NCBI GenBank assembly: GCA_000002445.1
Contig: CP000071.1
Coordinates: 800,001 to 864,000 of the forward strand
Source of the DNA: Trypanosoma brucei
Taxonomy: Eukaryota
Direction: 5' to 3'
Length of the DNA stretch: 64,000 bases
Position 1 is the stretch's first letter. Each line of letters starts with the position of its first letter. This document shows, in pieces, positions 14,828 to 64,000 of the stretch. Below the pieces are notes generated by a model. That model did not search any database. It was not told the DNA's origin and saw nothing but the letters and a program-made list of their open reading frames with translations. Both the position numbers and the translations under genes were made by a program.

Positions 14828-15526
14828 CAATTGGTGAGCCCTGGGAAAAGTGGAGACTCGCCCAGGACTCTGAGTGGAGAAAACAGCGATGAAGAGGGGG
14901 GTTTTGGGGTAAGCTAATAGTTGCCGAGCTCGGTAGAAGGATCACGGACGGTTGGCCCTCGCGGTGGAGCGAACGGCGGAACGCCTTGAGTTTGGCACCA
15001 TATGTTTGCGTTGTCTGCACGAAGGGGTGCCAAGTGATTCGTTTCACAAGTTATTATTTTCACATACAACTCTTTTACTCTCCTTTCATTTGTCGATTCT
15101 GCACCTATCCCTGCGACCTGCTACCGGCCTTGGATGGCGAACTTCTTTGTGCATTGAATCTGGATCCCACTTCCCTTTCCAATTTTATTCTCCAGTGACA
15201 ATTTTGTGCCATTCTTTTTTTCAGTCATCCCTGTTTGTTTGGAGGGGGATTCTCGATGTGGTGGCATCACTGGTGCTGGTAGAAACCCAACCTGGGAACG
15301 GAGAGCCTCTACCACACGTCGGCTCCGTGCGAACCGAGCGCCTCCCGGGTCCTAGCGGGTGTTTTTTTTTTCTAAATTCGTTTTGATGTATTGTTGTGAG
15401 AGTTTAGGGACCTGCAGGAGGGATACAAGGTGTTGTGAAACGGGTTGGGCTACAAATCGTGTGCTTATAATTCTTTTTCTCGTTTCGGTTGTTTCTGCGA
15501 GCTAGGCCAGTGAAAGAATTTGAGAA

Positions 15527-29518: not shown

Positions 29519-30970
29519 TGGCACAGAGGGTAACGAAGTAGGAATTTTTGCCGCCAGCTGAGGTCGTTTACCTTGGGTTGGCTGTCATGGAGATAGGGAA
29601 GAGAGAAGCAACATCGCGTGCAAGGAAAAACGAACAGAAGAATCGATCCCTCCCCCCTCCATGAGTCCTTCTTCGTTTATAATTTCGGCTGTTGTTTTTG
29701 CTGTCACCTTTTTTTTTCTTCCTTCTCGTTCGCCACACCCTCTCCTCAACCTCCTTTACCTCCATGGATCTCTCGGCAGCAGTCCCCCTCCCCTCATTCC
29801 CCTCATGTTTTGGTGGTCGCCTTATTGGCACCTCTTTTCGTCATTTTTTCCCCCCACTTGCTGCAGTTCAAGGCGTATTTGTGGGGAGAGTAAAGAACAT
29901 AAGTGAAATCTGAAAACAATAGAAAAGAGAGATGAATTAATTAATGAATGAATGGGAGAAATAAGGAGGAGAGGTGGTGGAGAGCTGGGGAACTGTAATG
30001 AAGAAGAAAAAAAAGAAGAACGAGGGAAAGGTAGATTCAGTGGGGGAGACAAAACAGTGAAGAAGAATCTGGCGGAAAGCAACAATAAGTGTGAAAATGA
30101 GAACGAAGGTGTGAATGATTCTTCAGTTTAAGAAACCACACGTGAAGAAGGACAGAATATATAAATAAATATATCTATTTATATGTTGATGTCTCAGAAG
30201 AAAAAAAGCAAAGGAGGGGAGATAGAAGAGGTTTAAAGGGAGGAAGGAAGACAGGCCCTGAAACCAATAAAACAAAATAAATAAATAAAGAAACGCGAAA
30301 TCAAAACTGAAAATGCGAAAAAAAAAACGAAGAACAAGAAGGGTGCAATGAAGGAATGAACTCCACAGAGAGAATACCCGTTCAAACATTCTTTTCTTCG
30401 TTTTTCCCCTCCTCCTCTCCCCGACGCAACCGCCCCCCTTTTTTTTCTATAATTGGCTCTTCTGACCCACACCCCCTCACTTTCCTTCTCAAAGAACGGC
30501 ATCTTGTTTTCCCACCCTTTATTATTGTTAATTTCTTTTTTCGCTTTACTATTATTATTATTATTTACCACCCCATCACCGTTACTTTTAGTTGTTTTTT
30601 TTTTTTTTATGCCTCTCTCCTTTCATTTTTTTGCGCTTTTGCTCCTCCTTATTGGTTATGTAGAGCGATTTATATAAATCTAATATATATATATATATAT
30701 ATATTTGTATTCATATATTTTATGTCTTATATACATAACTACTTTCGCGCAGAAAAGGGAAAGAGGAAAGGAGAAGAAGGGGGAAAATAGAAAGCCCATG
30801 CACATATATATATATATATATTTATTTATTTGTTTATTTATTTATATATATATATATATGTATTCTTTGTACCTCCCTTTCGTTTTTACTTTGTTTTTTG
30901 TTTTACCTTTTTTTTGTTTCTACTTTGTTTCTTGTTTTGTTTACTGTTAGTCACTCCTTACTATTTTTAC

Positions 30971-31110
30971 CGCCTCTATTATTATCACTATTATTATTAT
31001 TATTATTACTATTATTATTCCTATTATTATTATTATTATTCCTATTATTATTATTATTATTATTCCTATTATTATTATTATTCCTATTACTACTGCTATT
31101 ATTATTGTTA
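30971..31110. repeat. Imperfect (TTA)n/(TAT)n microsatellite punctuated by CC (cctattattattatt... x4-5)
   Basis: Direct reading of the sequence. Confidence 0.9.
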
Positions 31111-33336
31111 TTTCTGGGGCTACTGCAGTGCTTTCCCTTTCTTTTTCTTTGGGTGTTCGCGTGGTTGAGATTGTGATGTGACTTCTGTTTGCTGACGATT
31201 GTTTGTTTCTATTTGATTGTGCCGGTGTCTGTTTTCCCCCACCCCCGTGATGTCACGAAGAAAAACAAAAATTAAATTGAAAAGTTTTTACTTCTCCTCG
31301 TCCAAAGCAATTGCTCTCCTCCTTCCTTTTCTCCACACGCGCGCACGTACGTAGTGAACTAATCAAAGAGTGAAGAAATAAAAATAAAAACACGCGTCGT
31401 GTTGTGGATCCCTTTTTCGGATCCAATTTGCGCTATTGCTTTTTTTTGTTAGTATTATTGTTTTGTGCTTTTTTTTTTCTTTTTCTGTGTGTGTAATATG
31501 ATTTTGTCGCTTTTCATTCAGCGGAAGCAGACAGTAAAGTTATGGGCTCATATGCTTGCATGTGCATTCCATCCGATATTGCGCGGGAGTTGTTGTTTTG
31601 TTTTGTTTTTCACACCTTCGTCCCTTTTTTTTTTCTTTTTGGTTTTTATTGTTTGTATATATTTTCATATTTATGTACATATATTAGGAGCAAATGCATG
31701 CGTGTTTGTGCTTTAACGCCCATGTGTGCGCCCCTTGGCTTGCTTTCCCACAAATACCCTTTCGAAACGCCTTACGGAAGCGGGGACAATATAATTAAGA
31801 AGAAAGGGAGATGGGGGGGAAAAAAAAAAGAGAAAGAGAAAGAGAAACACCGGCTCGTAGACATGAGGAGAGGAATCAAAAAAAAGACAATGAAATGAAA
31901 TAAAGTTAAGTGAAGTGAATTGAAACGAGGTAAGAATTTAAGAAGTTAAGAAAGCTGGTGACCCGCCGTCGCTTTTCTACTTCATTCCACTCTTTTTTTT
32001 TCTTCTTTTCTTTTTTTTCCCATCCTTTTCCTTTTTTTTTGCTAGTTTTTGATCCGCTTTGCCTTTGCATCTTATCTTTCCATTGCTCCCACTTTTTTTT
32101 TATTGTTTCTTTTTTTTTCCCCCTGTTGTTGTCACCATTATTATGTCATGTTATGTCATCGGTACTACGACAGTTGCATTATGATAGTTATTATTTTTGT
32201 TCTTTCTTTTTTGTTCTCGTTTTGTGACGTTGATGTTTGGTTTCATTTTTATTTTTGCGGTTACCTTTTTGTTTTTATTCGCTTTTTTTTTCCTTTTTGG
32301 TTTATTTATTTGTACTTGGTGAAAAGGAAAAAAAACAAAAAATATATATATATATAGATACAGAAGCAGAGGAAGAGAGAAAGAGAGAATGAATGAATGA
32401 ATGAATACGATGAAGAAGATATTGGAATAGAGGTGGAAAGGGAGGGGGAAAAAAAAAAAAGAGGAAAGGGTGACGCGGTTGAGTTGACGGTAAACAAAAC
32501 AGAAACGATAAGAAAAATAATGCACAAAATTCTTCCCCTTCTGTTCCTGTTTTTCGTTTCTTTGTTTGTTTTGTTTTGTTTCGTCTTCTGTTTGGTACCG
32601 CATCACCCGTTACCATGGCCCTCAATATGTCTTTATTATCATTATTATTATTATTATTATTATTACTATCCGTTACTGTTATCCTTCATTGGCATGATGT
32701 TTTTCCGCCGATATTTCACATCTTTTCATTGACTCTTATTATTTTTCACTTCATCCATGCCGACTCTGCAGTACTTGTAGAAATTTCATTGAAACAGTAT
32801 TTTGACGAAAAGGAAGCAAGAAAGTTAAAAATTAATGTAATGTAATGCAATGCAATGTAATGTAATGTAATAAAAAAGTAATAACAATGACAAACCTAAT
32901 AACTATCATAATTATAAGAGAAATTGAAAGAAAGGACAAGGTAGGGTGGAAAAGGAAGCAAAAGAGGGAGAAGGGGGTGAAAAAAAAAATTAATTGTTTA
33001 AGGCTTGAGAAGGGAAAACGGCACTGTAGTAGAGAATGAGAAGGAATAAAAATAAGTGCGTGAGTAAATGGATGAATCAACAACTAAGTGAATGAGCATT
33101 TTCATGTACACAAAAAAAAAAATGAAAAGACGTGTTTGACTCACAAAGGGGAGGAAGAATAGCATGAAAGGTAAATATTTGTGTCAGAATAAAAAAGAAA
33201 CTAAGAATAAAAAAGAAATAATAACAATAATAAAGTGAGGCAGAAAATGATGTTTCCACACCATTGGGATTGTTAAATGTTGCGATTTGGAGAGGAGGGA
33301 ACGCGTGTTGACTGACGTGGTGATGAAAATTTTTTT

Positions 33337-33371
33337 GTTTTGTTTTGTTTTGTTTTGTTTTGTTTTGTTTG
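33337..33371. repeat. (GTTTT)7 pentanucleotide microsatellite. A related (CTGTTTT)3 lies at ~33478-33512.
   Basis: Direct reading of the sequence. Confidence 0.9.
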
Positions 33372-36300
33372 AGGGTCACACGTGTTCCACAACTCCTCCT
33401 TTTGTTTTATTTTGTTTCCGCCCTCCCTCGTTCCCCCTTTCTGCGTTTCCCCTTTTTTTTTCTTTTTTTTTCTTTTTTTTTTTCTGTTTTCTGTTTTCTG
33501 TTTTGTTTTGTTTTTTTTTTTTGCATCCCATCGATTTGAGAGTTATAAAAGACGAGGAAAAGCGGAATGTTTCTCGTGCGACGAGAGCTGGACATGTAAA
33601 ACACAAAGGGAAATTAAGGAAGTAAATAAAAGTAAAAAAAAAAGAAAAGAAGAAAAACGAAAAAGAAAAAAGGAAAAAGGAAAAAAAAAAGCACCCGAGT
33701 GGGTAGAGGATATGCTGGCAATAGTGTGGTCAGTTTATTTTAAAGAGGGAATATGTGGAGGGAAGGGAAATTTTTTGAATATAAATATTTACTCCCACAA
33801 CATGCCGGAAATATATATTAATATTTGAAAAAAAAAAGAGAGAGAGAGAGAGAAAGAAAGAGATGGATTGGAAGGTAAGGTAAGGTAAAGAAGTAAAGTG
33901 AATGAAGCGCGTTGATAATAAATTAAGAGGAAATAAAAAATGTGAAGGATTTGAAGAAGTTTTGTTGGTGCTACTTTCAAGTGAAACTAAACAAAATATG
34001 TGAAGGACGTAATCAATATTTATTTGTTTGTTTGATGACGCTTCTATCCATCTGTCTTCCTTTTGCTTGTAATTTCACTTTTGTATTTTCCCTCCTTCCC
34101 CTCATCGTTTGTTTTTTCATACTTTTTTTACTTTTTTTTTGTGTTTGTATGGTTGGTTGTTCCGCGTATTGCGTTTAAAAAAAAAAAGTATTGAATAGCA
34201 TTGTCGTTCGTGGACCTGGCGCCCTATTTTTTTTTGTTTTTTTTTGTTTTGTTTTACTTTATTTTCACCTTGGATATGGGCATATGATACAAATAAAATA
34301 ATAATTAAAAAAGGGGAAGTGAGGCTTAGTGAACAAACGAAAAGGAAGTCAAATGAAATAATAATTTCTTTATTAAAGTGGTAAAAGAACAAGAATGACG
34401 TTAACGATGAAATGAGCTCCACATATGTCAGGTACTTGAAATCACGTAAAAGATAAAGAATGATTTAAAGGAAGATTAGAGAATATGAGGAGTTAGAAAA
34501 GAGCAAGTAAGTAAGGGTAAGTATATTCTAAGGGAAATGCTACTTGTACTTATAATTAATGACAATAATAGGGAGGGCAAACCAAATATATATAAATATA
34601 AATAAAGATATATATATATATATATATACATATATTTGATTAAAGGAGCGAGAGAAAAGGGGGGGCAGAAACGAACAAAATAAAGTTAGTGAAGGAAAAA
34701 AGAACTGAATAATAAGGTGCTTTCCTTACCGCATTTGTGAGCCACCCCTCATCCCCACATGTACGAGAGCATTTTTCATCGTTTTCGTTCCTCAACAAAC
34801 TTTTGTGCGATGAGGTGGTGGATGAGGAGTGGCAGTGCCAAAAGTAAACAAATGGATCTATATTTCCATTTTTGTTACTTATGAATGTTCACACCTTATC
34901 TTGTTTTTTTTTAAGTTTTCAGCCTTTTTTTTTCGTTTTTTTCTTTTAAATTGTGTGTGTGAGCTCTTTTTTTTTTTTACGCTTCCTCCCACCCCCATTG
35001 CGGGATCCGCTTTGCAAAGAGGAAATATTTTGAGGTATGTGGAGGGCTCCCGTGTCCTCATATATGTAAGCAGCGCTTTTTTTTCGTTATGCTAATTTGA
35101 AAAGGAATTTTCATGTATGTACATAGTTAATATAAAGAAATATATTTATATATTTATAATATACAATATATACAAGAAATATACATACATGTTTCTGTGA
35201 CCGTCTATCTAACTGTCTGACCATCTAATTGACTGACCGACTGGCTGTTTGTTTGTTGTTTTTTTTTTTTCGTTTGCGTGTAAACATAGATACATCATAA
35301 TGGAGTGGCCTCTCATGTGTATGTGCGGGTGCATCCATGTGTGCATGTCTCGTGTTTCCGTTTATTGTCATTATTATTGTTTGTATTCCTTGTTTCGCAC
35401 CTTGTGTGTGTTTGCTTGTTCGTGTTCGCCTACTTTTTTTTTTGCTTTTTTTTTGTTTTTGTTTTTCCTCCTTCCCTTTTATGTGAACCATGGCTATCAT
35501 TTCTTATTATTACTGACATTATAGCTATTGTTATTGTTTACTGTTGCTACTGACATTCCTCCCTGGGTGAATTTCAATTATTTGTGATCTCCTTCTCGTG
35601 TTTTTCCCCCATCTTCTTCAGTCTTTCCTTTTTCTTTTTTTTTGTCTGCTTCGTGTTGACGTTAGTTTTCTGTTTTTGATGTGCGTGCAGTTTTTGTTGT
35701 TTCAACTAAATTAATTTTTCTGTTTTTTCCTTGAGGTCCTGCGCGCGGTGGCGAGAAAAAACAAAAGTAAATGTCAAATAATGGCTGGTTTTTCGACAAG
35801 GTTAACAGAATTCAAAAGGAATAAACAGTTTTTAAAAGAGAAAAAAACGGTGAAATATATATATATATATATATATTTAAAGCTGACAGATATACAAATA
35901 CGTGTGTGATCCTGTGTGATTGTGTGTTTGTGCTCACATTAGAAAGTAAATAAACAAATTTAATGTGCTTTTCTGCCGTCGAAACTTCCCTCCGCTCCCG
36001 TGTTTTGTCTTTGACGTGATATGCAGTGTGCGGATGAGGTTGTTACCACTTTTCTTTTTGTTGTTGTTGTCGTTTCTTCGCTTTTTTTTGGGGGGGGGTT
36101 TCAGTTTTTGGCTTTTGGCTTTATTATTGCCGCTTAATGGATGGAGAAGGGAGAGGGAGGCGATAGAAGCAAAGAAGAGTTCTGTTTGTTTGCTCGCTGC
36201 GGACTTCTGTTCACTTTGATTTAATATCCGGAAAGGAGCAAAAAAAGAAAAGTATAATTCATTTGACATTTCTTGAGCAAGTCGTACAATGAGTGAGCAT

Positions 36301-52052: not shown

Positions 52053-53813
52053 ATGCAGGTGACACGGGACAATTTACCGACCGTGCTTCCCAAATTTGTA
52101 CAGCTTCTGAAAACCTGCGACTTCTATGCATTCGACGAGGAAATGACAGGAATCAATGTGCCTGAGCTCCCAGAGTCTGTCACCGATACGCCCCAGGAAA
52201 CCTACAACGCAAAGCGAGCAGCGGCAAGCCGCTACAATATAATTCAAGTCGGGATATGCCTCTTTCACAAAAATAGCGAAAACGGGCCTTCTACACCAGC
52301 GTCGTATGTTGCCCGCCCCTTCAACTTTGTTATTTTCCCCAATCATGAAGACGACTCGCCAAGCTTGGGGAGGGGAGACGACGTGGTGCTAAATCCTTCG
52401 TCCCTTGCATTCCTTCGGCGGCACGACATGAATTTTCAGTCGTGGGTGTACCGTGGCATGGGTTATTGCGATGCCGCCCGTGAGGTGGTATTGCGCCAAA
52501 ATCATGAAGAAAAGTACCACCCTAACCTAAATGACTCTACAGAGCAACGACGGCGCCACGCGCAGTCTATGGAACTCCTAACCCAGGAAGAGAGAAGTTG
52601 GTTTGATGGGGCCGTTGCCGCAGCGCAGAGCCTCTGTGAGCGTGCCCGGGCCGCAGTGGAGCGCGCACAGGCGCAATGTGCTGAAAAGGGAAGTCCTGGT
52701 GCAATTGAGCTGGATGCCGCGATGGATCTCCAGCGATCCGGCGGACGCGAAGTCGTCATCCAGCCGCAGAGAAACAAAAATGCCCGAGAATGTCTGCAGC
52801 GGCACATCGCGCAACACTTCCAAGATATTTCTCTCACGTTCCGACGGAGCGGTTCGACTTATCATGGCACCTTTAAGGTCCTCTTTCCCGGCGAGCAGGC
52901 TCGTATTCTCGAGAAGGAATGCGCGCTGAGAGAACGCGAATTGGTGGATATGCTAGGTTTCCGCCTCGTTTTTAAGGCACTTGTCGAAAGTTCGAAGCCT
53001 TGTGTTGGGCACAACTGCCTAGCGGACGTTCTCTTTCTACTAGCTTCTCTCGATGGAGAACTTCCCGCCGCATTGCCCGAGTTCAAGCATCGCGTCGTCC
53101 AGCTGTTCCCGAAAGTGTTCGACACCAAGTATATTGCCAGCCGCCAAGATCTCTTTCCGGCAGGCAGATTTGGGTCTCGCTACTTGGCGGGGTATTTTGA
53201 CGAATGTGGATTTTGCTCGGCAAACGTTCGAGTATCACTTCCGTTGGGCTTCGAGGAATATGACCCGCTGAAACTTTCTTCAGTGGGGAGAAGCGCAGGT
53301 GGCAATGGCGCACCGGTTCACGAAGCCGGATACGACGCCTTGTTGACTGGGACGCTGTTGCTTAATCTACTCGCGGAAATTGGAGGAGGTGACGTGACGA
53401 CGGCCCCAGCAGGGTTGACGAATAGGTTGGCCCTCTTTCGTTCCCTATTCGCCATTAACCTAAATCCCGACGGTGAAGATGAATACCTTCCTCAAAGCGG
53501 TGCGTTAACGCTACAACACGAAAAACACATCAAGTCTCATCATATCGACAGCTGCTTTTCAGCCTTCTCCTTGCAACATGTAGCCCTGTACCCGATCGAC
53601 GACATGCGCACCCTTGCTGTGCTCCCCTTGTCGTGGACAAAAGCGTGCAACCTCGACGTTGAGGATGTGAGTGGGCTTTCTGTGCAAATGACCTCGCGCT
53701 TCCCTCAGTACTTCCAGGCGTCTCCGTTCACATTCCCTGCAGGTACTAAAGGCGCCTTCCGCGCAACGCCCGTCTCTCTAGCAAGAACGGTTTGCAAAGC
53801 ACTAAGAAGGTGA
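52053..53813 (+). CDS. PARN: Poly(A)-specific ribonuclease (PARN, CAF1/DEDD family deadenylase)
   Basis: The N-terminal block DFYAFDEEMTGI corresponds to PARN DFFAIDGEFSGI and carries the catalytic D and E. The C-terminal catalytic block HEAGYDALLTG corresponds to PARN HEAGYDAYMTG. 586 aa. This may correspond to T. brucei PARN-1 (from memory, unverified). Confidence 0.85.
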   Translation: MQVTRDNLPTVLPKFVQLLKTCDFYAFDEEMTGINVPELPESVTDTPQETYNAKRAAASRYNIIQVGICLFHKNSENGPSTPASYVARPFNFVIFPNHEDDSPSLGRGDDVVLNPSSLAFLRRHDMNFQSWVYRGMGYCDAAREVVLRQNHEEKYHPNLNDSTEQRRRHAQSMELLTQEERSWFDGAVAAAQSLCERARAAVERAQAQCAEKGSPGAIELDAAMDLQRSGGREVVIQPQRNKNARECLQRHIAQHFQDISLTFRRSGSTYHGTFKVLFPGEQARILEKECALRERELVDMLGFRLVFKALVESSKPCVGHNCLADVLFLLASLDGELPAALPEFKHRVVQLFPKVFDTKYIASRQDLFPAGRFGSRYLAGYFDECGFCSANVRVSLPLGFEEYDPLKLSSVGRSAGGNGAPVHEAGYDALLTGTLLLNLLAEIGGGDVTTAPAGLTNRLALFRSLFAINLNPDGEDEYLPQSGALTLQHEKHIKSHHIDSCFSAFSLQHVALYPIDDMRTLAVLPLSWTKACNLDVEDVSGLSVQMTSRFPQYFQASPFTFPAGTKGAFRATPVSLARTVCKALRR

Positions 53814-54288
53814 AGAAGGGTGTTTAAAAAAAAAAAAATTCGCGTTACTCTACTGCAAAAAAAAAAAAAGACATTCGGCAACGAACAATTCAATCCACTG
53901 GGGGATGCGTGCCCTTCGTCGCACCACAACCACAATCCTCTTCAATTTTCCCTCTTTCCTATTTTCGACCCCTAACCCGCCTGCCGGCACGCCCCAAATG
54001 GCGCGGCCCACATTTGACGTAGAAACCATTTGCATATATGACTCTCCCGAGGACCCGCGCCCCGGGCAGACTCGAAGGGGGGACGTTCTGCGCATAACGC
54101 TAAGTGGCGGCGAACAGCAAGCCTCCCGTAACGTCCCTGTAAACGCGGCCGACCCGATCCAATAGTAAAACACAAGGGCCACGTCCTCTTCCCGCCCCCG
54201 CCGCAGCAGTAAGGTTATGCGTGAGAGGTTTTGACTGCCACTTGGAACGCTGAACCGTGGCGTAAGAGTCTCCGCAAAGGAAAACGAA

Positions 54289-54362
54289 TGCTCCCGGCGG
54301 GGTTCGAACCCGCGATATTCGGTTCATAAGACCAACGTCCTAACCAACTAGACCACGGGAGC
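54289..54362 (-). tRNA. tRNA-Ile (anticodon UAU)
   Basis: Minus-strand cloverleaf: acceptor gctcccg/cgggagc, anticodon arm ttggt-cttatga-accga, T arm gcggg-ttcgaac-cccgc, T-run after the 3' end. G at position 37 is unusual. Confidence 0.75.
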
Positions 54363-54456
54363 ATTGGCGCCGGCCACTTCGACAGATACAGAGGAAAGGA
54401 CCGCCGAGTAAACTTCTTCGTTTGTATTAGAAAAAAACAGCCTAACGGCAGTGGCC

Positions 54457-54528
54457 GGTCCTATAGTGTAGTGGTTATCACTTCGGACTTTGAATCCGAA
54501 AACCCAGGTTCGAATCCTGGTAGGACCA
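54457..54528 (+). tRNA. tRNA-Gln (anticodon UUG)
   Basis: ggtcctatagtgtagtggttatcac...ttcgg-actttgaat-ccgaa... The T arm ggttcgaatcc is followed by aattttcgttttttt. It closely resembles eukaryotic Gln-TTG. Confidence 0.85.
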
Positions 54529-54800: not shown

Positions 54801-57767
54801 CTTTTCTCCGATTTCCCTGATTTAACTTCCACAATGGGGTGCCTCGAGTGCTGTCCCGTAAGGCGGTGTGATGTGTCAACAGGCCTTCCTTCAGCAGCGT
54901 CACAGTGATATCGTCGTCACTAAAGGGGAAGTGCCTTCTTCAGGTTGTTGATCTAACATGTTATTGGCCGAAGGCTCCTGCGGTGGACGGCGCATCCCAC
55001 CACCACCTCCCCCCCCCCCCCCGAGAGATCGGGCCTGTGAACTTTTCGGTTATACCCCACACACCCTTTTTCCGGTGGTCTGTCACGGTTTAATTTACGC
55101 GACACGAAAGAGAGCAAACAGACCCCTCACATGAAGCGATGTGTGGGACCGTGTTTTCGGGGGGGCCGAGTCATTAGAACACTTGGAGTTCCTTCTTTTT
55201 TGCTTGTGTCAGACGTCACTGTGCAGCTTTCCTTTCCTAAGGACTAGCCCTTAGCTCGGTGGGGCCATTCAGTAAAGAAGTTCCACCTCCTCACAGTGGT
55301 TGCACAGGAAAATAGCTGCACCCAGGGGCTGGGCACAGGCGCCACAACAAACCACGGCTATTGTCCTAACCCTTGAAAACCAATAAACTTGTATGTACAT
55401 AATGGGTGTCACCTCTAATTGATTCGGAAGTGGACACGAGTATCTTGACGTCAAAAAAAAAAAAGAAAAAATAGCGACTAGCGAACTCCCATATGCTGGG
55501 ACCGTTGAGGTCTTCAGAGGGGACGCTGTACGGAACAAAGATACTGTTAAACATCACCCTGAAGTTGTGGAAAGGATAAAGGCGAAGTGGGGGGCTGAGA
55601 AAAATGGAACCTGAAGGAACAAAATGAAAAACTCGGGGACCTATTACGAAGGCTCGCTCCGAAATTTGATAGAAACTAAGGTTCGATAGAACCAAATTGT
55701 TTATTGTACGCCCTTTCTCTTTAATCTATTTTGTCAGGTGCCGACTAGGATGATGACCCCTAGTAGGGAACAAAAAAAGACACTCGAAACAAAATGCAAG
55801 TAGTCTTTTCATAAAAATAAAAGAGATCAGGCCCTCATCACATCACACAACGTTCTTAAACATGCAGAAACACGACATATACCAGTGTTCGCGCCTGTGC
55901 GAAGCTCCAGCATCCACCTACTTCCTACTCCCACAGACACACACCCTTCACCCCAGCCCCTGTGGTGAGACTATGTTTTTCCCTGCACATGATGGGAGCC
56001 GTGTCATCAACTGTTCGTGGGCTGAAAGCATGTACCCGGGGCCCCTCTGATGGGAGTGCCTGTGTGGTAAAGAGTCCGCCCCAAACACGGCAGTGGGTTG
56101 GTGTTGTTCGCCTTTACGCTCCAATCATACCCCATTGGAGCACACCACAGGCACCTGATCTTCCCACCCTGACTGATGTGCATGAACAGAGAAACACTCT
56201 GGGGTTTCCGGCTGCCCCGGGGCACCGATTCTTTTCGCAGAGATAAATTCCCTTTAGCTTGTCATAGAAGTGGTTTTACGTTCTGCGGATCAAGGCTTCA
56301 AACAAATAGGCACCCGATATTTCTTTTCCCAACTTTTTTTTTTCACCGCTGCCTATTCAATCATCCTCGAAGCGTGCAAAAGCGGCTAGTAAAAAAAGAA
56401 AACCTTATACCAACTCGAGATTAACATAATATATGTACACATAACTCGTGATCGAGCCCCTAGTTTTGAGCGCTAGCCACACATAGGTCCAATTTTTTTT
56501 TCTTTTCACCGTTGAAAAGTAACTTGCCCGAACCACTCAAATAAGTGCCCAAGGTGTGTGGGAAGGAAAGACACAAGACTCTTCTAAGTAATTTCAAAAC
56601 TGTGACATCACTGGAAGGCCAAATAACCAATGTCCATGGGATGGTCAGAGCTCAGTAAAGTGACAGCAGCGTCGGTGAAGACTGCGCCGGGTCTGCCGAA
56701 CGAGAATGGCAAACTCCAGGTGCAGAAACACCAGCACACGCTCACACACATTCGCATATAAACAGCCTCCGCCTTCCCAATGCCGAGCGAAAGAGAACAC
56801 GCTGTAACCTATGGAAGCGGCGAAACACAGCTATCGCTAACCTTGCTTTGCGGTCATTGCTAACGCTGATGGGACGAAAAATAAGGGCTGACAGCTGGAA
56901 GAATAACACCAACAGAAAAGGAAAAGAATGGTGGCTAAGAGGCTCATATGTTCGAGCTTTTAAACTGGTATTAAGCGCAATTTCATGGGGTAATATTGCG
57001 CTGGTCTTGGTACCTTTATCTGGGGCAACGGCTATTACACTAGAGGGCAGGATGTGTAAAGCCACGTATCTCCACAGTTTATTGAAAGGAGGAAGAAGTT
57101 CTTGAATTAAATAACTTTTTTGATAAAGATTTTAACAACAAGCTAAACAGAATGCTCTAAATTTGGAGGAGGTGACAAGTAAGGAGAGGGTGGGGAAGAA
57201 ATCCTGGGAAAACAGATGCGGTTAGAGGGAGTTTGTATTGGGCAACTTTTTTTTTTTTGCACGCAGGCACGATTTAAAAATATATACATTTGCTTCCAGT
57301 GTTGGCTCCTTGTTCTCTCTCAGTGTCTGAAGGCAAAGTAGGGCCTGGATTATCACTAGAAGTAAGTCAATGGAGGTAATATCCTGGAATGGGTGCGATA
57401 CCCGAGAGTTCCCCCCATTGGGGTCGAGGCGATATGCTTTTCGCATAAAACACCGGAAGCAGGTACGTGCAAAAGAGGAAAGGAGGAGCATCATCTACGA
57501 GAGTGCACCCTCACCTCATTAACGTGAATGCGCTCAGTTAGGAAACTTGGACTTACCCCCTTTTATCCTTCCCTTTTGGAAGCCGTATTCGGCCCAAACA
57601 CGAACCAGTACGTGGGGATTCGGCGTAGCAACGCCGCCGGTATTCAATACGAGGATGGACCAACCAACGTATACAAATAAAGAAAACGACGAGGAGACAA
57701 GACAACGCCAAGCTGTTAAAAGTTTACCCACAGAACGGCCCATACAAAACGATGCACGGAAGGACGA

Positions 57768-57845
57768 AAAGGAGGGACGCTTCCGTTCCCACTCAAAGTT
57801 TACTGCAAGCACGGCGCTTTCGTGATGACGCACTGCAGGTGAGTT
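57768..57845 (-). ncRNA. U1: Candidate U1 snRNA (~75-78 nt)
   Basis: The minus-strand transcript AACUCACCUGCAGUGCGUCAUCACGAAAGCGCCGUGCUUGCAGUAAACUUUGAGUGGGAACGGAAGCGUCCCUCCUUUU has a 5' end ACUCACCUG complementary to a GU 5' splice site (canonical U1 is ACUUACCUG). It carries an Sm-like AAACUUUGAG site, a terminal hairpin GGGAACGGAAGCGUCCC and a U4 terminator. The size fits the unusually short (~75 nt) trypanosomatid U1. Confidence 0.65.
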
Positions 57846-58105
57846 GCCCCCACCCCGGAAAAACAGCCGTACAACCCAACATACCACAAAGAACAATATA
57901 AAAGGATCGTATACTAATAAATACTGCGTGGCCGCACCCCTTTTCATCTTGTCTGAATGCCGAGGATGATGGGTTGCAGACGCCGCACTCATCGCCTTGG
58001 GATCGGTGCCCGGTTCATGCGTACTTTGTCTTGACATCTCGATCGGGGCGGCATACTCCATAATATGCTATAGCGTACATAAAAAAACAGTGCTGGGCTG
58101 TAGCG

Positions 58106-58177
58106 GCAATCGTGGTCCAACGGTTAAGATTTCCGCCTTCCAAGCGGGAGACCCGGGTTCGACTCCCGGCGATTGCA
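58106..58177 (+). tRNA. tRNA-Gly (anticodon UCC)
   Basis: gcaatcgtggtccaacggttaagat-ttccgccttccaagcggga...cccgggttcgactcccgg-cgattgc-a. The anticodon loop ccttccaag and T arm match eukaryotic Gly-TCC. Followed by ttttttcgttttt. Confidence 0.8.
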
Positions 58178-58264
58178 CATTTTTTCGTTTTTATCATTCG
58201 GCATATTGTTATGCTCTCGAAAAGCTTTGACACAACATTGCTACGTTAACTCAGGCGGCGGTGT

Positions 58265-58429: not shown

Positions 58430-58501
58430 AGGCCCCGCCGAGAATTGAACTCGGGACCCCTGGTTTACAAGACCAGTGCACTGCCACTGTGCTACGAGGC
58501 C
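58430..58501 (-). tRNA. tRNA-Thr (anticodon UGU)
   Basis: Reverse complement ggcctcgtagcacagtggcagtgc-actggtcttgtaaaccagg-ggtcccgagttcaattctcggcggggcc-t. Nearly identical in its arms to eukaryotic Thr-TGT. Confidence 0.85.
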
Positions 58502-58598
58502 AGCGGAAAGGGCTAATAGATATTTCTTGCAGAAACTTTTTTAGAGGAAAAAGGTTATTTCATATACGTTGGCATTTTCAGTATTGCGCCTCGCTGAC

Positions 58599-58670
58599 GG
58601 TCTCGTGGCGCAATGGAAGCGCATCAGACTTCGGATCTGAGGGTTGCAGGTTCGAGTCCTGCCGGGATCG
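58599..58670 (+). tRNA. tRNA-Arg (anticodon UCG)
   Basis: Acceptor ggtctcg/cgggatc. D arm gcgcaatggaagcgc. Anticodon arm tcaga-cttcgga-tctga. T arm gcaggttcgagtcctgc. Confidence 0.8.
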
Positions 58671-60986
58671 CACTTTTCCTCAGTCACATTGGTTCGATAG
58701 CGCCGCGGCTTGTGTGTTAACGGCGCCGCCGGCTGAAAATAGCGGAAGTGGCTGCTAAAGGAGGGGGAGGAGGAGGGGACTAACGACACGGGCTAGCCTG
58801 GCTGGTAGCGGCGAATGTGCTTTCGCCCGACATGATGGTGACCTCTATTTTCTGCTTTATAAGGTTTCGCCTTGACGTTGGAAGAACCGCTTCTTGCACA
58901 TTTGCTCAATGTTGATCATTTCATAGTTTAAGTCAGCAACAGGTCGACCGCCTGTAAGGGTCATCTTTTCCTTACCCACTTATCCCTTTTGCCAATATAT
59001 GCTCATACACAGAAATTGACGGTCAGAGATTTTTCACATGGAACAGTTGAAGCTCGTTTTGCCAACATCCCGAGGAGCGGAGACGAAAATCGCAACCGCC
59101 TCTTTATTGGGCCCCGCATGGCTTAATACCAACCGTTTCTCCCTTCTTGTAGAGAAAAAAAGGTTCTGTTTAGTTGGTTGACTTTCTTGTGAAGATGCCA
59201 TGCATAGAGGGACGTTGTCAATTCGAAAATGATGCGTATGCTTGGAAGGGTCTCTCTTTTCACACGTTGGAATGAATTAAGGAAGCCTTTCTGCCAACGC
59301 CGCGGGACCGCATCAACCGTCATTGCAGGCGTCATTGTAAGGTGGAGTGGGGCTAGTGGATAAACGGAAACGTTTGTATGATGCCGAAATGAATCGAAGC
59401 AAGGCTCATAACACACATACGAGTCGCTCTCCGCTGAATCAACCGGCCTCCAGTCCAACGGGACGAGATGAGAAGTCGGGAATGCACCATAGCACTGAAG
59501 AAGTAGGGGTCGTCGGGATGTCGATGGAGGAACCCCGCCAACCTGGAAATTGACACCTTCTTCCACCTTTCTTTGGCATTTTAATAAGCGATATGTACGA
59601 ATGAAGCTCCCTAATCTTCTCGAAACGTCGGATTGCGGTTACGGCCACCGGAATGACCTTAGGATGCATCTTGGAAGGGGGTTTTTGTCTACTAGCCTGG
59701 TTTGCTTCTCCGAGGATTGGACACCGGTCCCCCTGACGTTGTGTTGACGGGGGTTGGGCAGGCCGCTGCAATGCAGGCTGTGAAAAACTCATTTTGTCCG
59801 CGCCACCGAAGCGCGGGAGACACGGTTGCTTTATTACTTGTTCCATAAGTTAGAAAGAGTCGCATTATCCAACATGTGTTGAGGAAGGGTTTCGACGCAT
59901 CTGCTGACGTTGCTACCCTCACGCTGACAGTTTAAGGGGGGCACTATAGCGAAGAAATCTTCCGCGAAGCGTTTGGAAGGTAACGAGCGGATTTTCGAGA
60001 ATTAGGGTCACGTAGCAATAACTGAAGAATCAGTGGGAAAGTAGAGAAGGAATATGCCAAAATTGAGAGTGGGTGTTGAAAAACTATCACGAATCCTGTT
60101 TGCCAGCTCAGGTTTCTCGCCTTGTTTCGCGGTGAGCGCGCTCAAATACATGTTGTCGACTCACACCCAGATTTCGGTGAGGGGGGGGGGCCGCCCGCCG
60201 ACACGGCAGAGTGTCACACTATTTCCGACTTTTCGTTCGCAGATAGCGGGGTGGGGCGATAGAAAGCGTGTCACATGATAGAACTTTGTGTTCGCTATTG
60301 TGTAGGTCTTAGGCTGTGGGACCCTAGAGGATAACAGAGAGTCAATCCCCTAAATAGCATTTCACACTATGAGCCCTGACTGCGGTTCCTTGTGGTAGAA
60401 TCGCTCCCCTTTTCATTTGGAAATTTGTTGTGGGGAAATGGATCACTCGATATTTAATGGGCATTGCTTGCTTTGGTATTGCCGCAAGTTGCACTCGTGA
60501 AATTGATGCCTGCGTGTGAGAGAGTCGACAAACATATGAATATATATATATTTTTGACTTTCACCTGGAGCTATTGTAGGGGGCCGCCCGAACGCACTTG
60601 GCTTCAGACCGTCATTGCGTGAGGGAGGGGGTAAGACAAAGATGGAAGAAATACATAATAGCGCCAACCAGACACAGTGTTTCGGACTGGCGAGCCAAAT
60701 AAAGTTAGCACCTCCTACCGCAGCTTATGAAGATGCCGGGGAATACTTTCTTGCGCATCTACTTTTATTCTGGTGGAGCGTTGAAATTTCCCCTCACCCC
60801 ACCGGAGAGTGCGTGATGTAACTCTGCGAATGTCATTGGGGCAAGGGGGGTGCAGCAAAATGGGCGGAGGCGGATGTTGTAAGGCATTTTTTCCCCCACA
60901 GTTCCTCCCATGAGGTGCTTGAATCGTGATCCTGTGACGAAAAGCCATAATCGGCAAAAGAAACCCACTTTGATCCGTTTTCAGCG

Positions 60987-61270
60987 GAAAACAAACCGCC
61001 TCGCGACGACACTTGGGGCGCAAAATCCTGAGATGCTCCTCGGTGTGCTTCTGCAACGGGAACGTGCGCAAGGTGGGCTGCTCCGTCACCGGCCTGACCC
61101 GTTCCCCCCACTTTAACGGCGCGAGAACGCCTCTCTACAGTGGCGACCTCAACACCGACACGCAACCAAGCAGAACACCAAGTCAACGCAACAGAACCCC
61201 CGCTTGTCCAAGACGTCCCCGCTAAGCGGGATCAGCCCCCGAAGGTTACAGAGCAATATGCTCCGGCTAC
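60987..61270 (-). ncRNA. 7SL: 7SL (signal recognition particle) RNA gene. The 3' end is approximate: oligo-T runs in the transcript correspond to + coordinates 61021-61024 and 60987-60994.
   Basis: The minus-strand transcript begins GUAGCCGGAGCAUAUUGCUCUGUAACC..GGGGGCUGA (Alu-domain-like UGUAAC and GGCUGA motifs). It contains GGGUCAGGCCGGUGACGGAGCAGCCCACCUUG, which closely matches the universally conserved SRP RNA domain IV / helix 8 motif (E. coli 4.5S GGUCAGGUCCGGAAGGAAGCAGCCAAGG). Its +1 lies ~96 bp from the divergent tRNA-Lys, the arrangement described for trypanosome 7SL genes. Confidence 0.8.
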
Positions 61271-61695: not shown

Positions 61696-61840
61696 AAGAC
61701 CGTACTCTGAACAGAATCGTTTTATGAGTACAACCTCTTAAATGAGAAATAACCAACAACCAAATCCTGATGATGAAGGTTGCTGGCTCCGCCCGGAGAG
61801 CTGTTCGATGAACGGCAGGAGCCGGTTCCAGAAGGATCCT
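61696..61840 (+). ncRNA. U3: U3 snoRNA (trypanosome snRNA B), ~144 nt, Pol III-type with a T7 terminator
   Basis: The 5' end AAGACCGUACUCUGAACAGAAUCGUUUUAUGAGU parallels vertebrate U3 AAGACUAUACUUUCAGGGAUCAUUUCUAUAGU (GAC, box A'/A). There is a UGAUGA box (cctgatgatgaagg) at 61766-61776 and a T7 run at 61840-61846. The +1 is 97 bp from position 1 of the divergent tRNA-Arg. The length fits the reported ~143-nt T. brucei U3. Confidence 0.8.
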
Positions 61841-64000
61841 TTTTTTGTTCCACCTTGGCTCGCTGCAACGGGAACTGCCTGGCTCGCTTCTTTTGAGGCC
61901 CTGTGCCTCACGGGTCTCAACGACGTAAAATAAGCCTCCCGGATGCGGCATTCACACCTCCTGCGTATGGAGAGATTGCGTTTGGGTGTGAGACTGGGTG
62001 GGAAACCAACGGCCAACATCCTTTTCGGGGCAGTGTGAGGGCGATCTCTATGCGCCTAGGGTGGCAGTGTTCAGACCACGCTCTTTGATGAGACCCAGTA
62101 GACGACGATCACCTTATCCGGGCTGTCGAATCCTTTCCGCCGACCCTTCAACCGTGGGATGGATAGGAAACTTTCCGGCCAGCGGGGTGGCAGTGCTTAA
62201 GATGGATGGTGCCGTGTTGGAGAGCGTCGCGCTCAGACGGTAGGCCCCACAAGGATTTCTGTTAGGTCTTACTTTGTTCACCAAAATGATGGAACGGTTC
62301 GGCCGACCAACGCACGGAAGACTGGGGTGCCCAGCATTGTTCCTTCGTGGTGGCAAACATGGCAGTAATGTGATCGAATATCAATCGCCGACAACCGGGG
62401 TGTCATATTCGGGAAGAATTTGTCGGCTTCGTCCAGTGTTCAATAAATTGTTCCATGGGAGTGTCTGCTGAGATTGCGAGGTCCACACTGTTTGGGTCAG
62501 CGACAAAAACGGCTGGCCACCGCGGGCCCGCCGAAGCTAATAGAAAAATGAAGATACCGACACAACCAGGCCCCACCCTGCAATATATCAAGGGCGCCAC
62601 CAAGCATCTCCAAGGGGAATTCGAAATGGCTTAAACGAAATTTTTTTTTTTTGGAATTTTCTTCGTGCCTTCGTGGGAGTTTCCCCCCACTGGCGCGGCC
62701 ATCAGCCATCACCGTAGAGCCCTGAGATGCTATCGGTCTGGCGACTGTGGCAGAGTCTCCCTTTTTCATTCATCCTAACACACCCTCTATAATTTTTGTT
62801 GTATTTCCGCATATGAACGGAATACAGCAGATGGGGCGAGAAGCCCCCCACCCCAGACTCTCCAAAAGTTGTCAATTAGCAATCCTTTTTTTGAGGTCCA
62901 CATCACCAGACAGCAGCATCTTAGTGCGGATGATAGTGCCGATGGCACGCTTGCCACGTGCCCAGGGACCGACAAATGAAGAACGGTGTCCCAGCAAGAC
63001 GCTGCTGATCCCTGTGCTGTATGATGCCGTATCCGGAGCACAGCAGTGTTCCCCATGAAAGGAACGCTGTTGGCTCTTGGCTTCCCCCGATGATACGGGG
63101 TACTGGACCCTGGCACCACGTTGAGGTGGCCGGCATCGCCAGGGACTTAAACGAAAATCGCCCGGTTGCATGCGGTTTCCCCGTTGTAACATTTGCGGGA
63201 GAAACGCTGGGGCCGTTGCGTCACACCGTCGCGGGAAACAGTGCGCTTCCGGGTAGTGGCCATGTTGTTCTTCACCTCCCACCTGACGAAAAAAAATCTG
63301 CAGGGGCCCAAAGGTCAAGCGGCCAGCATCATAGCAAGCATTCCGTGTGGTTTAAACGGGAGCGGCGTGCTGAAAGAGGCAGGATCACCCGTTGTTGAAG
63401 GAGGTTTGCGAGAGCGTAATGGAATGCTAAATTATATTGGCTGCCGGAACCACAGAACGCAGCAGGACCACCGGAAAACTTTACCACGTGGTCAATCTGC
63501 TCATATGGAGTTGGGCGCTGCAGAGGGTTGGTAAAGCAGCTTCTAGGGGTCAAATTTTCTCCGTTGGGGCAAAAGCATCGCTACTAGTTGAAAGATTGCG
63601 AAAGCAGGCTGCCCCCGGGTAAAATAAAGGAGGACGTGCCGGAAGGAGAAAATGAGGTTTAAACGATAATGAGGGTTAGAAGGCGTCCCACAGCGCGCCA
63701 TCAGATCCACGCCGTTGACTCAACCACGTTGGTCATGACTATTTGGGCTGGGGCCATCATATTTGACGAGGATGAGGAACGGACCTGGTCATTTAAAGGG
63801 GCTCGCAGGCTAGGGTGCGGTTAACAAGGAGAGAACGTTGCGACGGAAGTGACGTTCGGAGAACCTCCGAAAAAAAAAGGTGGGGAGCAAGAGAGGAAGT
63901 TGGGTTTATGACGTTCGTTGACTCCGTGTCCCTCATTCCAAGCCTCTGGTGCAGCGCCGGTGTCCGCAGAATTTGCCACGTACACCGCACAAGTTGCCAG

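What the first reader, a model, noticed from the sequence alone, without database searches (positions are those of the whole stretch)
57768..58020. Candidate U1 snRNA gene without an obvious full divergent tRNA partner
The minus-strand 57845->57768 gives a ~78-nt RNA. Its 5' end (A)ACUCACCUG is the near-canonical U1 5' splice-site recognition sequence (ACUUACCUG with one change). It is followed by an Sm-like AAACUUUGAG, a G-C-rich terminal hairpin and a U4 terminator. This matches the unusually small, single-hairpin U1 described for kinetoplastids. The other small-RNA genes here have a complete tRNA ~96 bp upstream. For U1 the nearest tRNA (Gly, 58106) is ~260 bp away on the + strand. The interval 57942-58020 contains only weak B-box-like (ggatcggtgcc / ggttcatgc) and A-box-like stretches, which suggests a degenerate tRNA-like promoter element.
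Basis: partly seen in the sequence, partly recalled or inferred. Interest (0 to 1): 0.6.

Follow-up and report, generated by a model that had tools for sequence, protein, structure and literature searches.

The report
Known Trypanosoma brucei U1 snRNA gene
This is the already described, unusually small (75-nt) U1 spliceosomal RNA gene of Trypanosoma brucei, apparently driven by a decayed tRNA-like promoter element instead of an intact neighbouring tRNA gene; it is real but ordinary.

Summary
The minus strand 57845->57771 encodes a 75-nt RNA followed by T4 (57770-57767). It carries every hallmark published for trypanosomatid U1:
- 5' AACUCACCUGCA (12/12 to the consensus);
- the U1-70K site AUCACGAA at nt 20-27, the published T. 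brucei numbering;
- the Sm site ACUUUG at nt 47-52;
- a 3' hairpin.

The window is the T. brucei-group chromosome 8 Pol III cluster (PARN-1 100% identical). Published primers for tRNA-Arg Tb927.8.2859 map 750 bp away. The annotated U1 is Tb927.8.2855.

Syntenic orthologues exist in seven other trypanosomatids. One stem-I pair covaries, and the 3' hairpin is conserved in structure but not in sequence. Rfam U1 does not detect the gene, which fits its lack of stem-loops II and III.

The "no full tRNA partner" remark is also correct. tRNA-Gly lies 261 bp upstream, and neither ARAGORN nor the Rfam tRNA model calls anything in between. An A-box-like TGTCTGAATGC starts exactly 105 bp upstream. Two degenerate B-box-like motifs lie at -155 and -167, and the GGTTC core at -167 recurs at -166 in T. 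theileri. Such tRNA-like promoters are already documented for T. brucei snRNA genes, U1 included.

Verdict: supported, already known, low interest.

The parts
57771..57845 (-). U1 snRNA coding region, 75 nt, +1 = A at 57845 (T. brucei U1, annotated Tb927.8.2855 in TriTrypDB according to PMC11613528)
   Evidence: Sequence. Covariance-model hit of 79 bits. Landmarks match the published numbering and the consensus motifs.
57834..57845 (-). 5' splice-site recognition sequence AACUCACCUGCA (nt 1-12)
   Evidence: 12/12 identity to the kinetoplastid consensus. Invariant in 7 of the 8 species aligned.
57803..57838 (-). Stem-loop I (nt 8-43): lower stem CUGC/GCAG, upper stem G13-C33, G15-C32, C16-G31, G17-C30
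   Evidence: 98.4% of cells pair across 8 species. Pair 16-31 covaries CG<->UA, 4:4.
57819..57826 (-). U1-70K binding motif AUCACGAA in loop I (nt 20-27)
   Evidence: Same sequence and same numbering as published for T. brucei U1 (PMC4041458).
57793..57801 (-). Sm site AAACUUUGA (core ACUUUG, nt 47-52)
   Evidence: The published T. brucei Sm site is 5'-ACUUUG-3' near nt 50-53. The consensus is AAAUUUUGA.
57774..57790 (-). 3'-terminal hairpin (nt 56-72), GGGA-CG / CG-UCCC
   Evidence: ViennaRNA fold, -7.6 kcal/mol. The 7 species folded all have a hairpin here, each with a different sequence; Angomonas was read by eye only.
57767..57770 (-). T4 RNA polymerase III terminator
   Evidence: Seven of the 8 orthologues end in a T run; Phytomonas ends in T3.
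57950..57960 (+). A-box-like TGTCTGAATGC of the divergent tRNA-like element, starting 105 bp upstream of U1 +1
   Evidence: 5/7 specified consensus positions. In the other seven species the best A-box match in the same window starts at 104-107 (5 genuine tRNAs, the Phytomonas pseudo-tRNA, a weak 4/7 match in T. theileri). The literature rule is 104-106 bp.
58000..58010 (+). B-box-like candidate 1, GGATCGGTGCC (-155), which can form a T-arm-like hairpin UUGGG/AUCGGUG/CCCGG
   Evidence: 7/10 to GGTTCRANYCC. Its spacing from the A box (50 nt) is within the range of real partners, 43-54.
58012..58022 (+). B-box-like candidate 2, GGTTCATGCGT (-167)
   Evidence: The GGTTC core recurs at -166 in T. 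theileri (GGTTCAAATAC). Shuffle P=0.0036 in T. brucei and 0.0006 in T. theileri.
58106..58178 (+). tRNA-Gly(UCC), the nearest genuine tRNA, 261 bp from U1 +1. It is context and may make an auxiliary contribution.
   Evidence: ARAGORN and Rfam. Its orthologue is the direct U1 partner at 100 bp in T. melophagium.

Best explanation
The locus is the single-copy U1 small nuclear RNA gene of a Trypanosoma brucei-group parasite.

The RNA (features shown here; functions from the literature):
- It is a minimal 75-nt U1.
- Its free 5' end, AACUCACCUG, base-pairs with the extended 5' splice sites of the few cis-spliced genes (PAP1, DBP2B helicase, RBP20).
- The loop of stem-loop I (AUCACGAA) binds U1-70K.
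- The ACUUUG site between the two hairpins nucleates the Sm core.
- Stem-loops II and III of canonical U1 are absent.

Transcription (inferred from anatomy and literature):
- The gene is transcribed by RNA polymerase III and terminates at T4.
- Initiation is directed by A and B boxes on the opposite strand, about 105 and 155-167 bp upstream.
- In this species those boxes lie in a decayed, non-cloverleaf tRNA-like element rather than in a functional tRNA gene.
- TFIIIC bound there is presumed to position TFIIIB and Pol III for the divergent snRNA start.
For: Identity of the window:
- The PARN-1 ORF is 100% identical to the T. equiperdum protein.
- The U1 region differs from T. equiperdum at 4 of 501 positions, none in U1 or the boxes.
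- Published primers for Tb927.8.2859 tRNA-Arg map exactly to 58599-58670.
- The window holds 10 tRNAs plus 7SL, U3 and U1, which is 13 Pol III genes as described for chr08-II.

Identity of the RNA:
- Motifs and numbering match the published T. brucei U1 and the kinetoplastid consensus.
- U1 is annotated as Tb927.8.2855.

Conservation:
- Orthologues lie in the PARN-linked tRNA cluster of T. theileri, T. melophagium, L. major, Leptomonas, Phytomonas, Angomonas and an ENA trypanosomatid.
- Stem I pairs in 98.4% of cells and has one compensatory pair.
- The 3' hairpin is present in all species with unrelated sequences.

Promoter:
- The A-box-like motif is at -105. The A box starts 103-105 bp upstream for U3 and 7SL in the same window, and the best A-box match starts at 104-107 bp for U1 in the other seven species.
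- GGTTC lies at -167 in T. brucei and -166 in T. theileri.
- A/B boxes of divergent tRNA or tRNA-like sequences are reported as essential for T. brucei snRNA genes, U1 included (PMC4950102).
- TFIIIC (Tau95) occupies T. brucei tRNA genes and the U2 tRNA-like promoter (PMC10781861).
Against: - Rfam U1 (RF00003) gives no hit even at E<=10.
- The fold energy of the whole RNA is no better than shuffles (z=-0.30).
- The T. brucei A- and B-box matches are individually weak (P=0.076 and 0.19).
- The true B box cannot be chosen between two overlapping candidates.
- The tRNA-like element shows no significant similarity to any tRNA and has no T-run terminator of its own on the + strand.
- I could not read the primary promoter paper (Djikeng 2001). 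Its content is taken from how other papers cite it.
- Expression was not tested here.
Confidence: 0.95

Rival explanations
1. U1 transcription is driven mainly by the genuine tRNA-Gly(UCC) gene 261 bp upstream. The intervening A/B-box-like stretches would then be non-functional debris.
For: The box matches in T. brucei are weak. In L. major U2, the B box of the more distant tRNA-Ala contributes about 46% of expression. tRNA-Gly(UCC) is the direct U1 partner in T. melophagium.
Against: The A-box distance is reported as nearly invariant at 104-106 bp, and it is 104-107 bp in all eight species examined here. The tRNA-Gly A box would lie about 268 bp away. The GGTTC at -166/-167 is retained in the otherwise unalignable, about 85% A+T spacer of T. 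theileri. Deletion of the distal tRNA in L. major U2 reduced expression by only 25%, whereas loss of the tRNA-like boxes abolished it.
Confidence: 0.1
2. The stretch belongs to a protein-coding gene: the 175-aa minus-strand ORF at 57534-58061 spans the U1 region.
For: The ORF exists.
Against: The ORF has no Pfam match. Conservation across species is confined to the 75-nt RNA, with a compensatory pair and a 1-nt indel in the stem. The flanks are unalignable and about 85% A+T in T. theileri.
Confidence: 0.01
3. It is a chance U1-like sequence or a silent U1 pseudogene, and the functional gene lies elsewhere in the genome.
For: Only this 64-kb window, not the whole genome, could be searched with the model.
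Against: The literature reports a single U1 variant in most kinetoplastids and annotates the T. brucei gene on chromosome 8 as Tb927.8.2855. That is four identifiers before tRNA-Arg Tb927.8.2859, which maps 750 bp away with exactly three tRNA genes in between. The sequence has all functional motifs intact and is syntenic in eight species.
Confidence: 0.02

Closest known systems
Trypanosoma brucei U1 snRNA gene (Tb927.8.2855; Djikeng et al. 2001, Mol Biochem Parasitol 113:109; U1 snRNP described by Palfi et al. 2005)
   Same: Same organism group and same chromosome 8 Pol III cluster. The length is 75 nt, AUCACGAA lies at nt 20-27, and the Sm site is ACUUUG. It is the same gene.
   Different: Nothing detectable. 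The window differs from the T. equiperdum assembly only at 4 flanking positions. The published full sequence itself could not be retrieved for a base-by-base comparison.
Canonical eukaryotic U1 snRNA (Rfam RF00003; human U1, 164 nt)
   Same: The 5' splice-site recognition sequence is ACUCACCUG versus ACUUACCUG. The stem-loop I loop motif AUCACGAA is shared. There is a U-rich Sm site followed by a terminal hairpin.
   Different: Stem-loops II and III and the four-way junction are absent. The RNA is 75 nt rather than 164 nt. It is transcribed by Pol III with a T-run terminator rather than by Pol II. It is not detected by the Rfam model.
[quoted passage not shown]
   Same: A divergent, non-cloverleaf tRNA-like sequence lies between the snRNA and a more distant genuine tRNA. 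The A box is about 104-105 bp upstream. The B box is at a variable distance.
   Different: The U1 element's boxes are more degenerate. The U2 tRNA-likes all keep GGTTC plus most of the B box. Here there are two overlapping 7/10 candidates. No own T-run terminator is visible.
U3 snoRNA and 7SL RNA genes in the same window, with genuine divergent tRNA partners (Nakaar et al. 1994)
   Same: The architecture and spacing are the same. tRNA-Arg(ACG) ends 96 bp from U3 +1. tRNA-Lys starts about 98 bp from the likely 7SL +1. The A boxes are 103-105 bp upstream.
   Different: Their partners are intact, expressed tRNA genes. The U1 partner is a relic.

Membership tests
Trypanosomatid minimal U1 snRNA | 5'-terminal motif AACUCACCUGCA | tested here: met
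   12/12 at 57845-57834. The consensus is from PMC11613528.
Trypanosomatid minimal U1 snRNA | First hairpin whose loop carries the U1-70K site (consensus CAUCAAGAAA; T. brucei AUCACGAA at nt 20-27) | tested here: met
   CAUCACGAAA at nt 19-28. AUCACGAA lies exactly at nt 20-27. The stem pairs in 98.4% of cells in 8 species and has 1 covarying pair.
Trypanosomatid minimal U1 snRNA | Sm site between the two hairpins (consensus AAAUUUUGA; T. brucei ACUUUG) | tested here: met
   AAACUUUGA at nt 45-53.
Trypanosomatid minimal U1 snRNA | Second, 3'-terminal hairpin, followed by a Pol III T-run | tested here: met
   Hairpin at nt 56-72, -7.6 kcal/mol, then T4. A hairpin is present in the 7 species folded, each with a different sequence.
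Trypanosomatid minimal U1 snRNA | Location in the syntenic PARN-linked Pol III cluster (T. brucei chr08-II / L. major chr23) | tested here: met
   Tb927.8.2859 primers map 750 bp away.
Trypanosomatid minimal U1 snRNA | Stable ~75-nt transcript assembled with U1-70K, U1C, U1-24K and Sm proteins | not testable with these tools
   Taken from the literature only (PMC4041458 iCLIP; small-RNP RNA-seq).
Canonical U1 snRNA (Rfam RF00003) | Match to the covariance model: four-way junction with stem-loops I-III plus stem-loop IV | tested here: not met
   No RF00003 hit at the gathering threshold or at E<=10 on a 701-nt stretch. This is expected, because stem-loops II and III are missing. It works like a U1 but falls outside the Rfam model.
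Trypanosomatid Pol III snRNA promoter (divergent tRNA or tRNA-like A/B boxes) | A box on the opposite strand starting 104-106 bp upstream of +1 | tested here: met
   TGTCTGAATGC starts at -105 with 5/7 consensus positions. The match is weak on its own (P=0.076). Real partner A boxes start at 104-107.
Trypanosomatid Pol III snRNA promoter (divergent tRNA or tRNA-like A/B boxes) | B box (GGTTCRANYCC) 30-55 nt downstream of the A box | tested here: inconclusive
   There are two overlapping 7/10 candidates at -155 and -167. The -167 GGTTC is positionally conserved in T. theileri (P=0.0006). Which one is functional is unknown.
Trypanosomatid Pol III snRNA promoter (divergent tRNA or tRNA-like A/B boxes) | Partner is a genuine cloverleaf tRNA gene | tested here: not met
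   ARAGORN finds none. The Rfam tRNA model gives nothing at E<=10. There is no significant similarity to 60 tRNAs. The fold z-score is -0.35. The locus therefore belongs to the tRNA-like subclass.
Trypanosomatid Pol III snRNA promoter (divergent tRNA or tRNA-like A/B boxes) | Boxes are required for snRNA expression in vivo | not testable with these tools
   Reported for T. brucei U1 according to PMC4950102, citing Djikeng 2001. The primary paper is not held.

The most novel reading that the evidence does not exclude
The U1 promoter partner has been replaced repeatedly during trypanosomatid evolution, while only the ~105-bp A-box spacing is kept.

- tRNA-Arg(ACG) in Leishmaniinae.
- tRNA-Leu(CAG) in Angomonas.
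- A genuine tRNA-Gly(UCC) in T. melophagium.
- A still recognisable tRNA-Gly-derived pseudo-tRNA in Phytomonas.
- An unrecognisable relic in T. brucei and T. theileri.

On this reading the T. brucei element is a decayed tRNA, possibly a tRNA-Gly duplicate, that survives purely as a TFIIIC landing pad. The ~146-bp difference between T. theileri and T. melophagium would be a natural promoter swap that restored a real tRNA at the canonical distance.
Probability: 0.45. Interest if true: 0.25.

Novelty: already known. Interest (0 to 1): 0.08.

Why it matters
It matters mainly as a correct call. A tool-less reader recognised a 75-nt RNA gene that the Rfam U1 model misses. For annotation pipelines this shows that kinetoplastid U1 needs a lineage-specific model.

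The biology has been in the literature since 2001-2005: a minimal U1 that serves two or three cis-introns, and Pol III transcription from upstream tRNA-type boxes.

The one mildly new item is the comparative picture of partner turnover at a fixed ~100-bp spacing. It could guide mutational work on how TFIIIC bound to a relic tRNA directs a divergent Pol III start.

Tried and rejected
- Rfam at the gathering threshold on the whole window, and at E<=10 on 701-nt and 201-nt stretches. No U1 hit and no tRNA hit for the tRNA-like element. Only chance-level matches appeared (GHRLOS, DdR7, MicC).
- Single-sequence folding z-scores for U1 (-0.30) and for the tRNA-like element (-0.35). Both are uninformative.
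- T. cruzi, T. conorhini and T. rangeli PARN loci (L001, L002, L005). No tRNA or U1 lies within 10 kb, because trans-sialidase and other genes are inserted there. The T. cruzi clade could therefore not be compared.
- T. congolense and T. grayi contigs were absent or too short.
- No protein-coding anchor exists downstream of the cluster in the window.
- A metagenome scan with a 21-base U1 pattern returned 0 hits.
- Origin of the T. brucei tRNA-like element. Smith-Waterman against 60 tRNAs, tRNA-Gly, the Phytomonas pseudo-tRNA and the T. theileri spacer gave nothing significant (P=0.2-0.9).
- Direct and inverted repeats around the element. Only short matches of chance level were found.
- Primary papers not held in the library: Djikeng 2001, Palfi 2005, Tschudi & Ullu 2002.
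- My first position-weight matrix for the A and B boxes was built from imperfectly registered ARAGORN boundaries. I replaced it with consensus counting.

Full report
WHAT IS IN THE SEQUENCE

The minus strand from 57845 reads AACUCACCUGCAGUGCGUCAUCACGAAAGCGCCGUGCUUGCAGUAAACUUUGAGUGGGAACGGAAGCGUCCCUCC (75 nt, ending at 57771). It is followed by T4 at 57770-57767. ARAGORN finds ten tRNA genes in the window, and the nearest is tRNA-Gly(UCC) at 58106-58178 on the + strand. Rfam finds 7SL RNA (61030-61255, -) and U3 (61696-61838, +), but nothing at the candidate, even at E<=10 on a 701-nt stretch. The RNA has two hairpins.

WHERE THE WINDOW COMES FROM

- The 586-aa ORF at 52053-53813 is a CAF1/PARN ribonuclease. 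It is 100% identical to PARN-1 of Trypanosoma equiperdum, a member of the T. brucei group.
- The T. equiperdum contig (L006) carries an identical U1. Within 57700-58200 it differs from the window at only four positions, none in U1 or the putative promoter boxes.
- Published qPCR primers for the T. brucei tRNA-Arg gene Tb927.8.2859 match 58599-58615 and 58654-58670 exactly. The matching intergenic primer lies at 58731-58750 (PMC10781861).
- PMC11613528 gives the annotated T. brucei U1 as Tb927.8.2855. Exactly three tRNA genes (Gly, Leu, Thr) separate the candidate from that tRNA-Arg, which fits the identifier numbering. This last step is an inference.
[quoted passage not shown] L. major chr23 holds U1 and U3. 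The window has 10 tRNAs plus U1, 7SL and U3, which is 13.

IDENTITY OF THE RNA

PMC4041458 states three things about T. brucei U1:
- it is 75 nt;
- its central loop holds the U1-70K site AUCACGAA at nucleotides 20-27;
- the Sm site is 5'-ACUUUG-3', with crosslink peaks at nt 50/53.

Counting from 57845, AUCACGAA occupies nt 20-27 and ACUUUG nt 47-52, and the body is 75 nt.

PMC11613528 gives the kinetoplastid consensus motifs and describes two hairpins:
- AACUCACCUGCA: the candidate matches 12/12;
- CAUCAAGAAA: the candidate matches 9/10;
- AAAUUUUGA: the candidate matches 8/9.

CONSERVATION

I fetched loci that encode PARN orthologues and found syntenic U1 genes in the adjoining tRNA cluster of these species:
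- T. theileri (L003, 13971, -);
- T. melophagium (L004, 13152, -);
- L. major chr23 (L007, 12858, +);
- Leptomonas pyrrhocoris (L008, 12696, +);
- Phytomonas Hart1 (L010, 15153, -);
- an ENA trypanosomatid (L011-13).

A covariance model built from these sequences (R1) gives a single hit in the window (79 bits). It also found the Angomonas deanei gene (L009, 12201, -; 66 bits), which was not in the training set.

Stem-loop I pairs in 98.4% of cells. Most pairs are invariant, and pair 16-31 switches C-G<->U-A, 4:4. Only 12 of 500 shuffles reach the observed score. The 3' hairpin exists in every species folded, with unrelated sequences and 5-16 bp stems. That is the stronger structural evidence. 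Conservation stops at the RNA boundaries. The T. theileri flanks are about 85% A+T and unalignable, which disposes of the overlapping 175-aa ORF.

THE PROMOTER QUESTION

It is also the exception among the species sampled. The distance from U1 +1 to the 5' end of the partner is:

| Species | Partner | Distance |
|---|---|---|
| L. major, Leptomonas, ENA trypanosomatid | tRNA-Arg(ACG) | 98-99 bp |
| Angomonas | tRNA-Leu(CAG) | 97 bp |
| T. melophagium | tRNA-Gly(UCC) | 100 bp |
| Phytomonas | pseudo-tRNA | ~97 bp (boxes at -105 and -148) |
| T. brucei | none; tRNA-Gly(UCC) further out | 261 bp |
| T. theileri | none; tRNA-Gly(UCC) further out | 246 bp |

The Phytomonas pseudo-tRNA is not called by ARAGORN or the Rfam tRNA model. 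It is still significantly similar to tRNA-Gly(UCC) (Smith-Waterman 43 against a shuffle maximum of 38), and it keeps a perfect GGTTCGAATCC and a T6 run.

In T. brucei, TGTCTGAATGC starts at -105 (57950). The best A-box match in the other seven species starts at 104-107. In the same window the A boxes for U3 and 7SL lie 103-105 bp upstream. This agrees with the published rule of 104-106 bp (PMC4950102).

Two overlapping B-box-like motifs follow:
- GGATCGGTGCC at -155 (58000-58010). It can form a T-arm-like hairpin and has canonical A-B spacing.
- GGTTCATGCGT at -167 (58012-58022).

Each matches 7/10 of the consensus. In T. brucei alone these matches are weak (P=0.076 for A, 0.19 for B, 0.015 jointly). 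GGTTC within -164..-169 has P=0.0036 in T. brucei. It recurs at -166 in the AT-rich T. theileri spacer, with P=0.0006. I therefore regard the -167 core as conserved and the -155 motif as a possible T-arm relic. Which one TFIIIC uses is unresolved.

The element has no detectable similarity to any of 60 tRNAs. It does not fold like a tRNA. It has no T-run of its own before tRNA-Gly.

MECHANISM

Shown here:
- the RNA's motifs and their conservation;
- the terminator;
- the position of the box-like motifs.

Taken from the literature:
- U1 pairs with the extended 5' splice sites of the few cis-introns and assembles with U1-70K, U1C, U1-24K and Sm proteins.
- All trypanosomatid snRNAs are Pol III transcripts that depend on A/B boxes of a divergent tRNA or tRNA-like sequence, U1 included.
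- TFIIIC exists in T. brucei and occupies tRNA genes and the U2 tRNA-like promoter.

Inferred:
- TFIIIC binds the relic boxes at 57950-58022 and positions TFIIIB and Pol III for the start at 57845.
- tRNA-Gly at 261 bp may contribute in an auxiliary way, as tRNA-Ala does for L. major U2.

COMPARISON AND NOVELTY

This is the known T. brucei U1 gene. It works like a U1 and is a member of the trypanosomatid minimal-U1 family on every testable criterion. It fails the Rfam RF00003 model because stem-loops II and III are absent, so that negative result is not a refutation. Its promoter belongs to the already described tRNA-like subclass. The only mildly new material is the comparative pattern of partner turnover at constant spacing. 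This includes the ~146-bp difference between the sister species T. theileri and T. melophagium, which places a genuine tRNA-Gly at the canonical distance.

LIMITS

- I could not retrieve the primary U1 gene and snRNP papers.
- I could not reach T. cruzi-clade, T. congolense or T. vivax loci.
- I could not scan the whole genome for other copies.
- I could not test expression.

VERDICT

The gene is already known, and interest is low.

Noticed in passing
L004 13152-13323; L003 13971-14288; L007 12687-12934; L008 12527-12770; L009 12130-12380; L010 15083-15330: The divergent partner of U1 differs between lineages while the ~97-100 bp spacing is kept. It is tRNA-Arg(ACG) in L. major, Leptomonas and the ENA trypanosomatid. 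It is tRNA-Leu(CAG) in Angomonas and a genuine tRNA-Gly(UCC) in T. melophagium. In T. theileri and T. brucei it is a relic, with tRNA-Gly displaced to 246 and 261 bp. T. theileri and T. melophagium differ by about 146 bp here.
   Followed up: partly
L010 ~15250-15325 (+): The Phytomonas U1 partner is a pseudo-tRNA that neither ARAGORN nor the Rfam tRNA model calls. It is still significantly similar to tRNA-Gly(UCC), with a perfect B box GGTTCGAATCC and a T6 run. A genuine tRNA-Gly(UCC) lies further away at 15505-15577.
   Followed up: partly
L003 13867-13971 (-); L004 13056-13152 (-): The T. theileri and T. melophagium U1 genes have long 13-16 bp 3' hairpins, giving RNAs of about 95-100 nt. 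The two species show compensatory differences in the stem. An internal T4 lies inside the stem, so Pol III would have to read through it.
   Followed up: no
L009 12190-12201 (-): Angomonas deanei U1 begins AACCAUCUGCAG instead of the otherwise invariant AACUCACCUGCAG. That is one nucleotide shorter and has a C-to-U change in the 5' splice-site recognition sequence.
   Followed up: no
window 57859-57863 and 58081-58087 (minus strand): A T5 run lies 14-18 nt upstream of U1 +1 on the same strand. A T7 run lies between the tRNA-like element and tRNA-Gly. They may be backstops against Pol III read-through into U1. On the + strand there is no T>=4 between the B-box-like motifs and tRNA-Gly.
   Followed up: no
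window 61255-61268 (-): The Rfam 7SL hit starts at 61255. The conserved ~98-bp spacing to tRNA-Lys (61366) suggests that the real 5' end is about 12-13 nt further upstream, near 61268. The A box would then be 105 bp upstream.
   Followed up: partly
window 58599-58670 and 58731-58750: Published ChIP/qPCR primers for T. brucei tRNA-Arg Tb927.8.2859 and its flanking intergenic region match these positions exactly. This anchors the window to chromosome 8 of T. brucei.
   Followed up: yes
window 54288-54528 and 58430-58671: Divergent tRNA-tRNA pairs (Ile/Gln and Thr/Arg) are separated by 93 and 97 bp. That is the same spacing as the tRNA-snRNA pairs.
   Followed up: no
window 30800-35250: An A+T-rich stretch (GC about 0.33) full of simple repeats (TAT, ATAT, poly-T, TTTTG). 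The rest of the window has about 50% GC.
   Followed up: no
window 61840-64000: No ORF with a Pfam match lies downstream of U3 (the two ORFs of 120 aa or more were scanned). The stretch looks non-coding, so no protein anchor was available on that side of the cluster.
   Followed up: partly
L010 14726 (-) and 13568 (-): Two further ACU(C/U)ACCUG-containing stretches lie near the Phytomonas U1. One reads CACUUACCUGG...AAUUUACCUUUGGGGG. The U1 model does not hit either, so they are probably chance.
   Followed up: no
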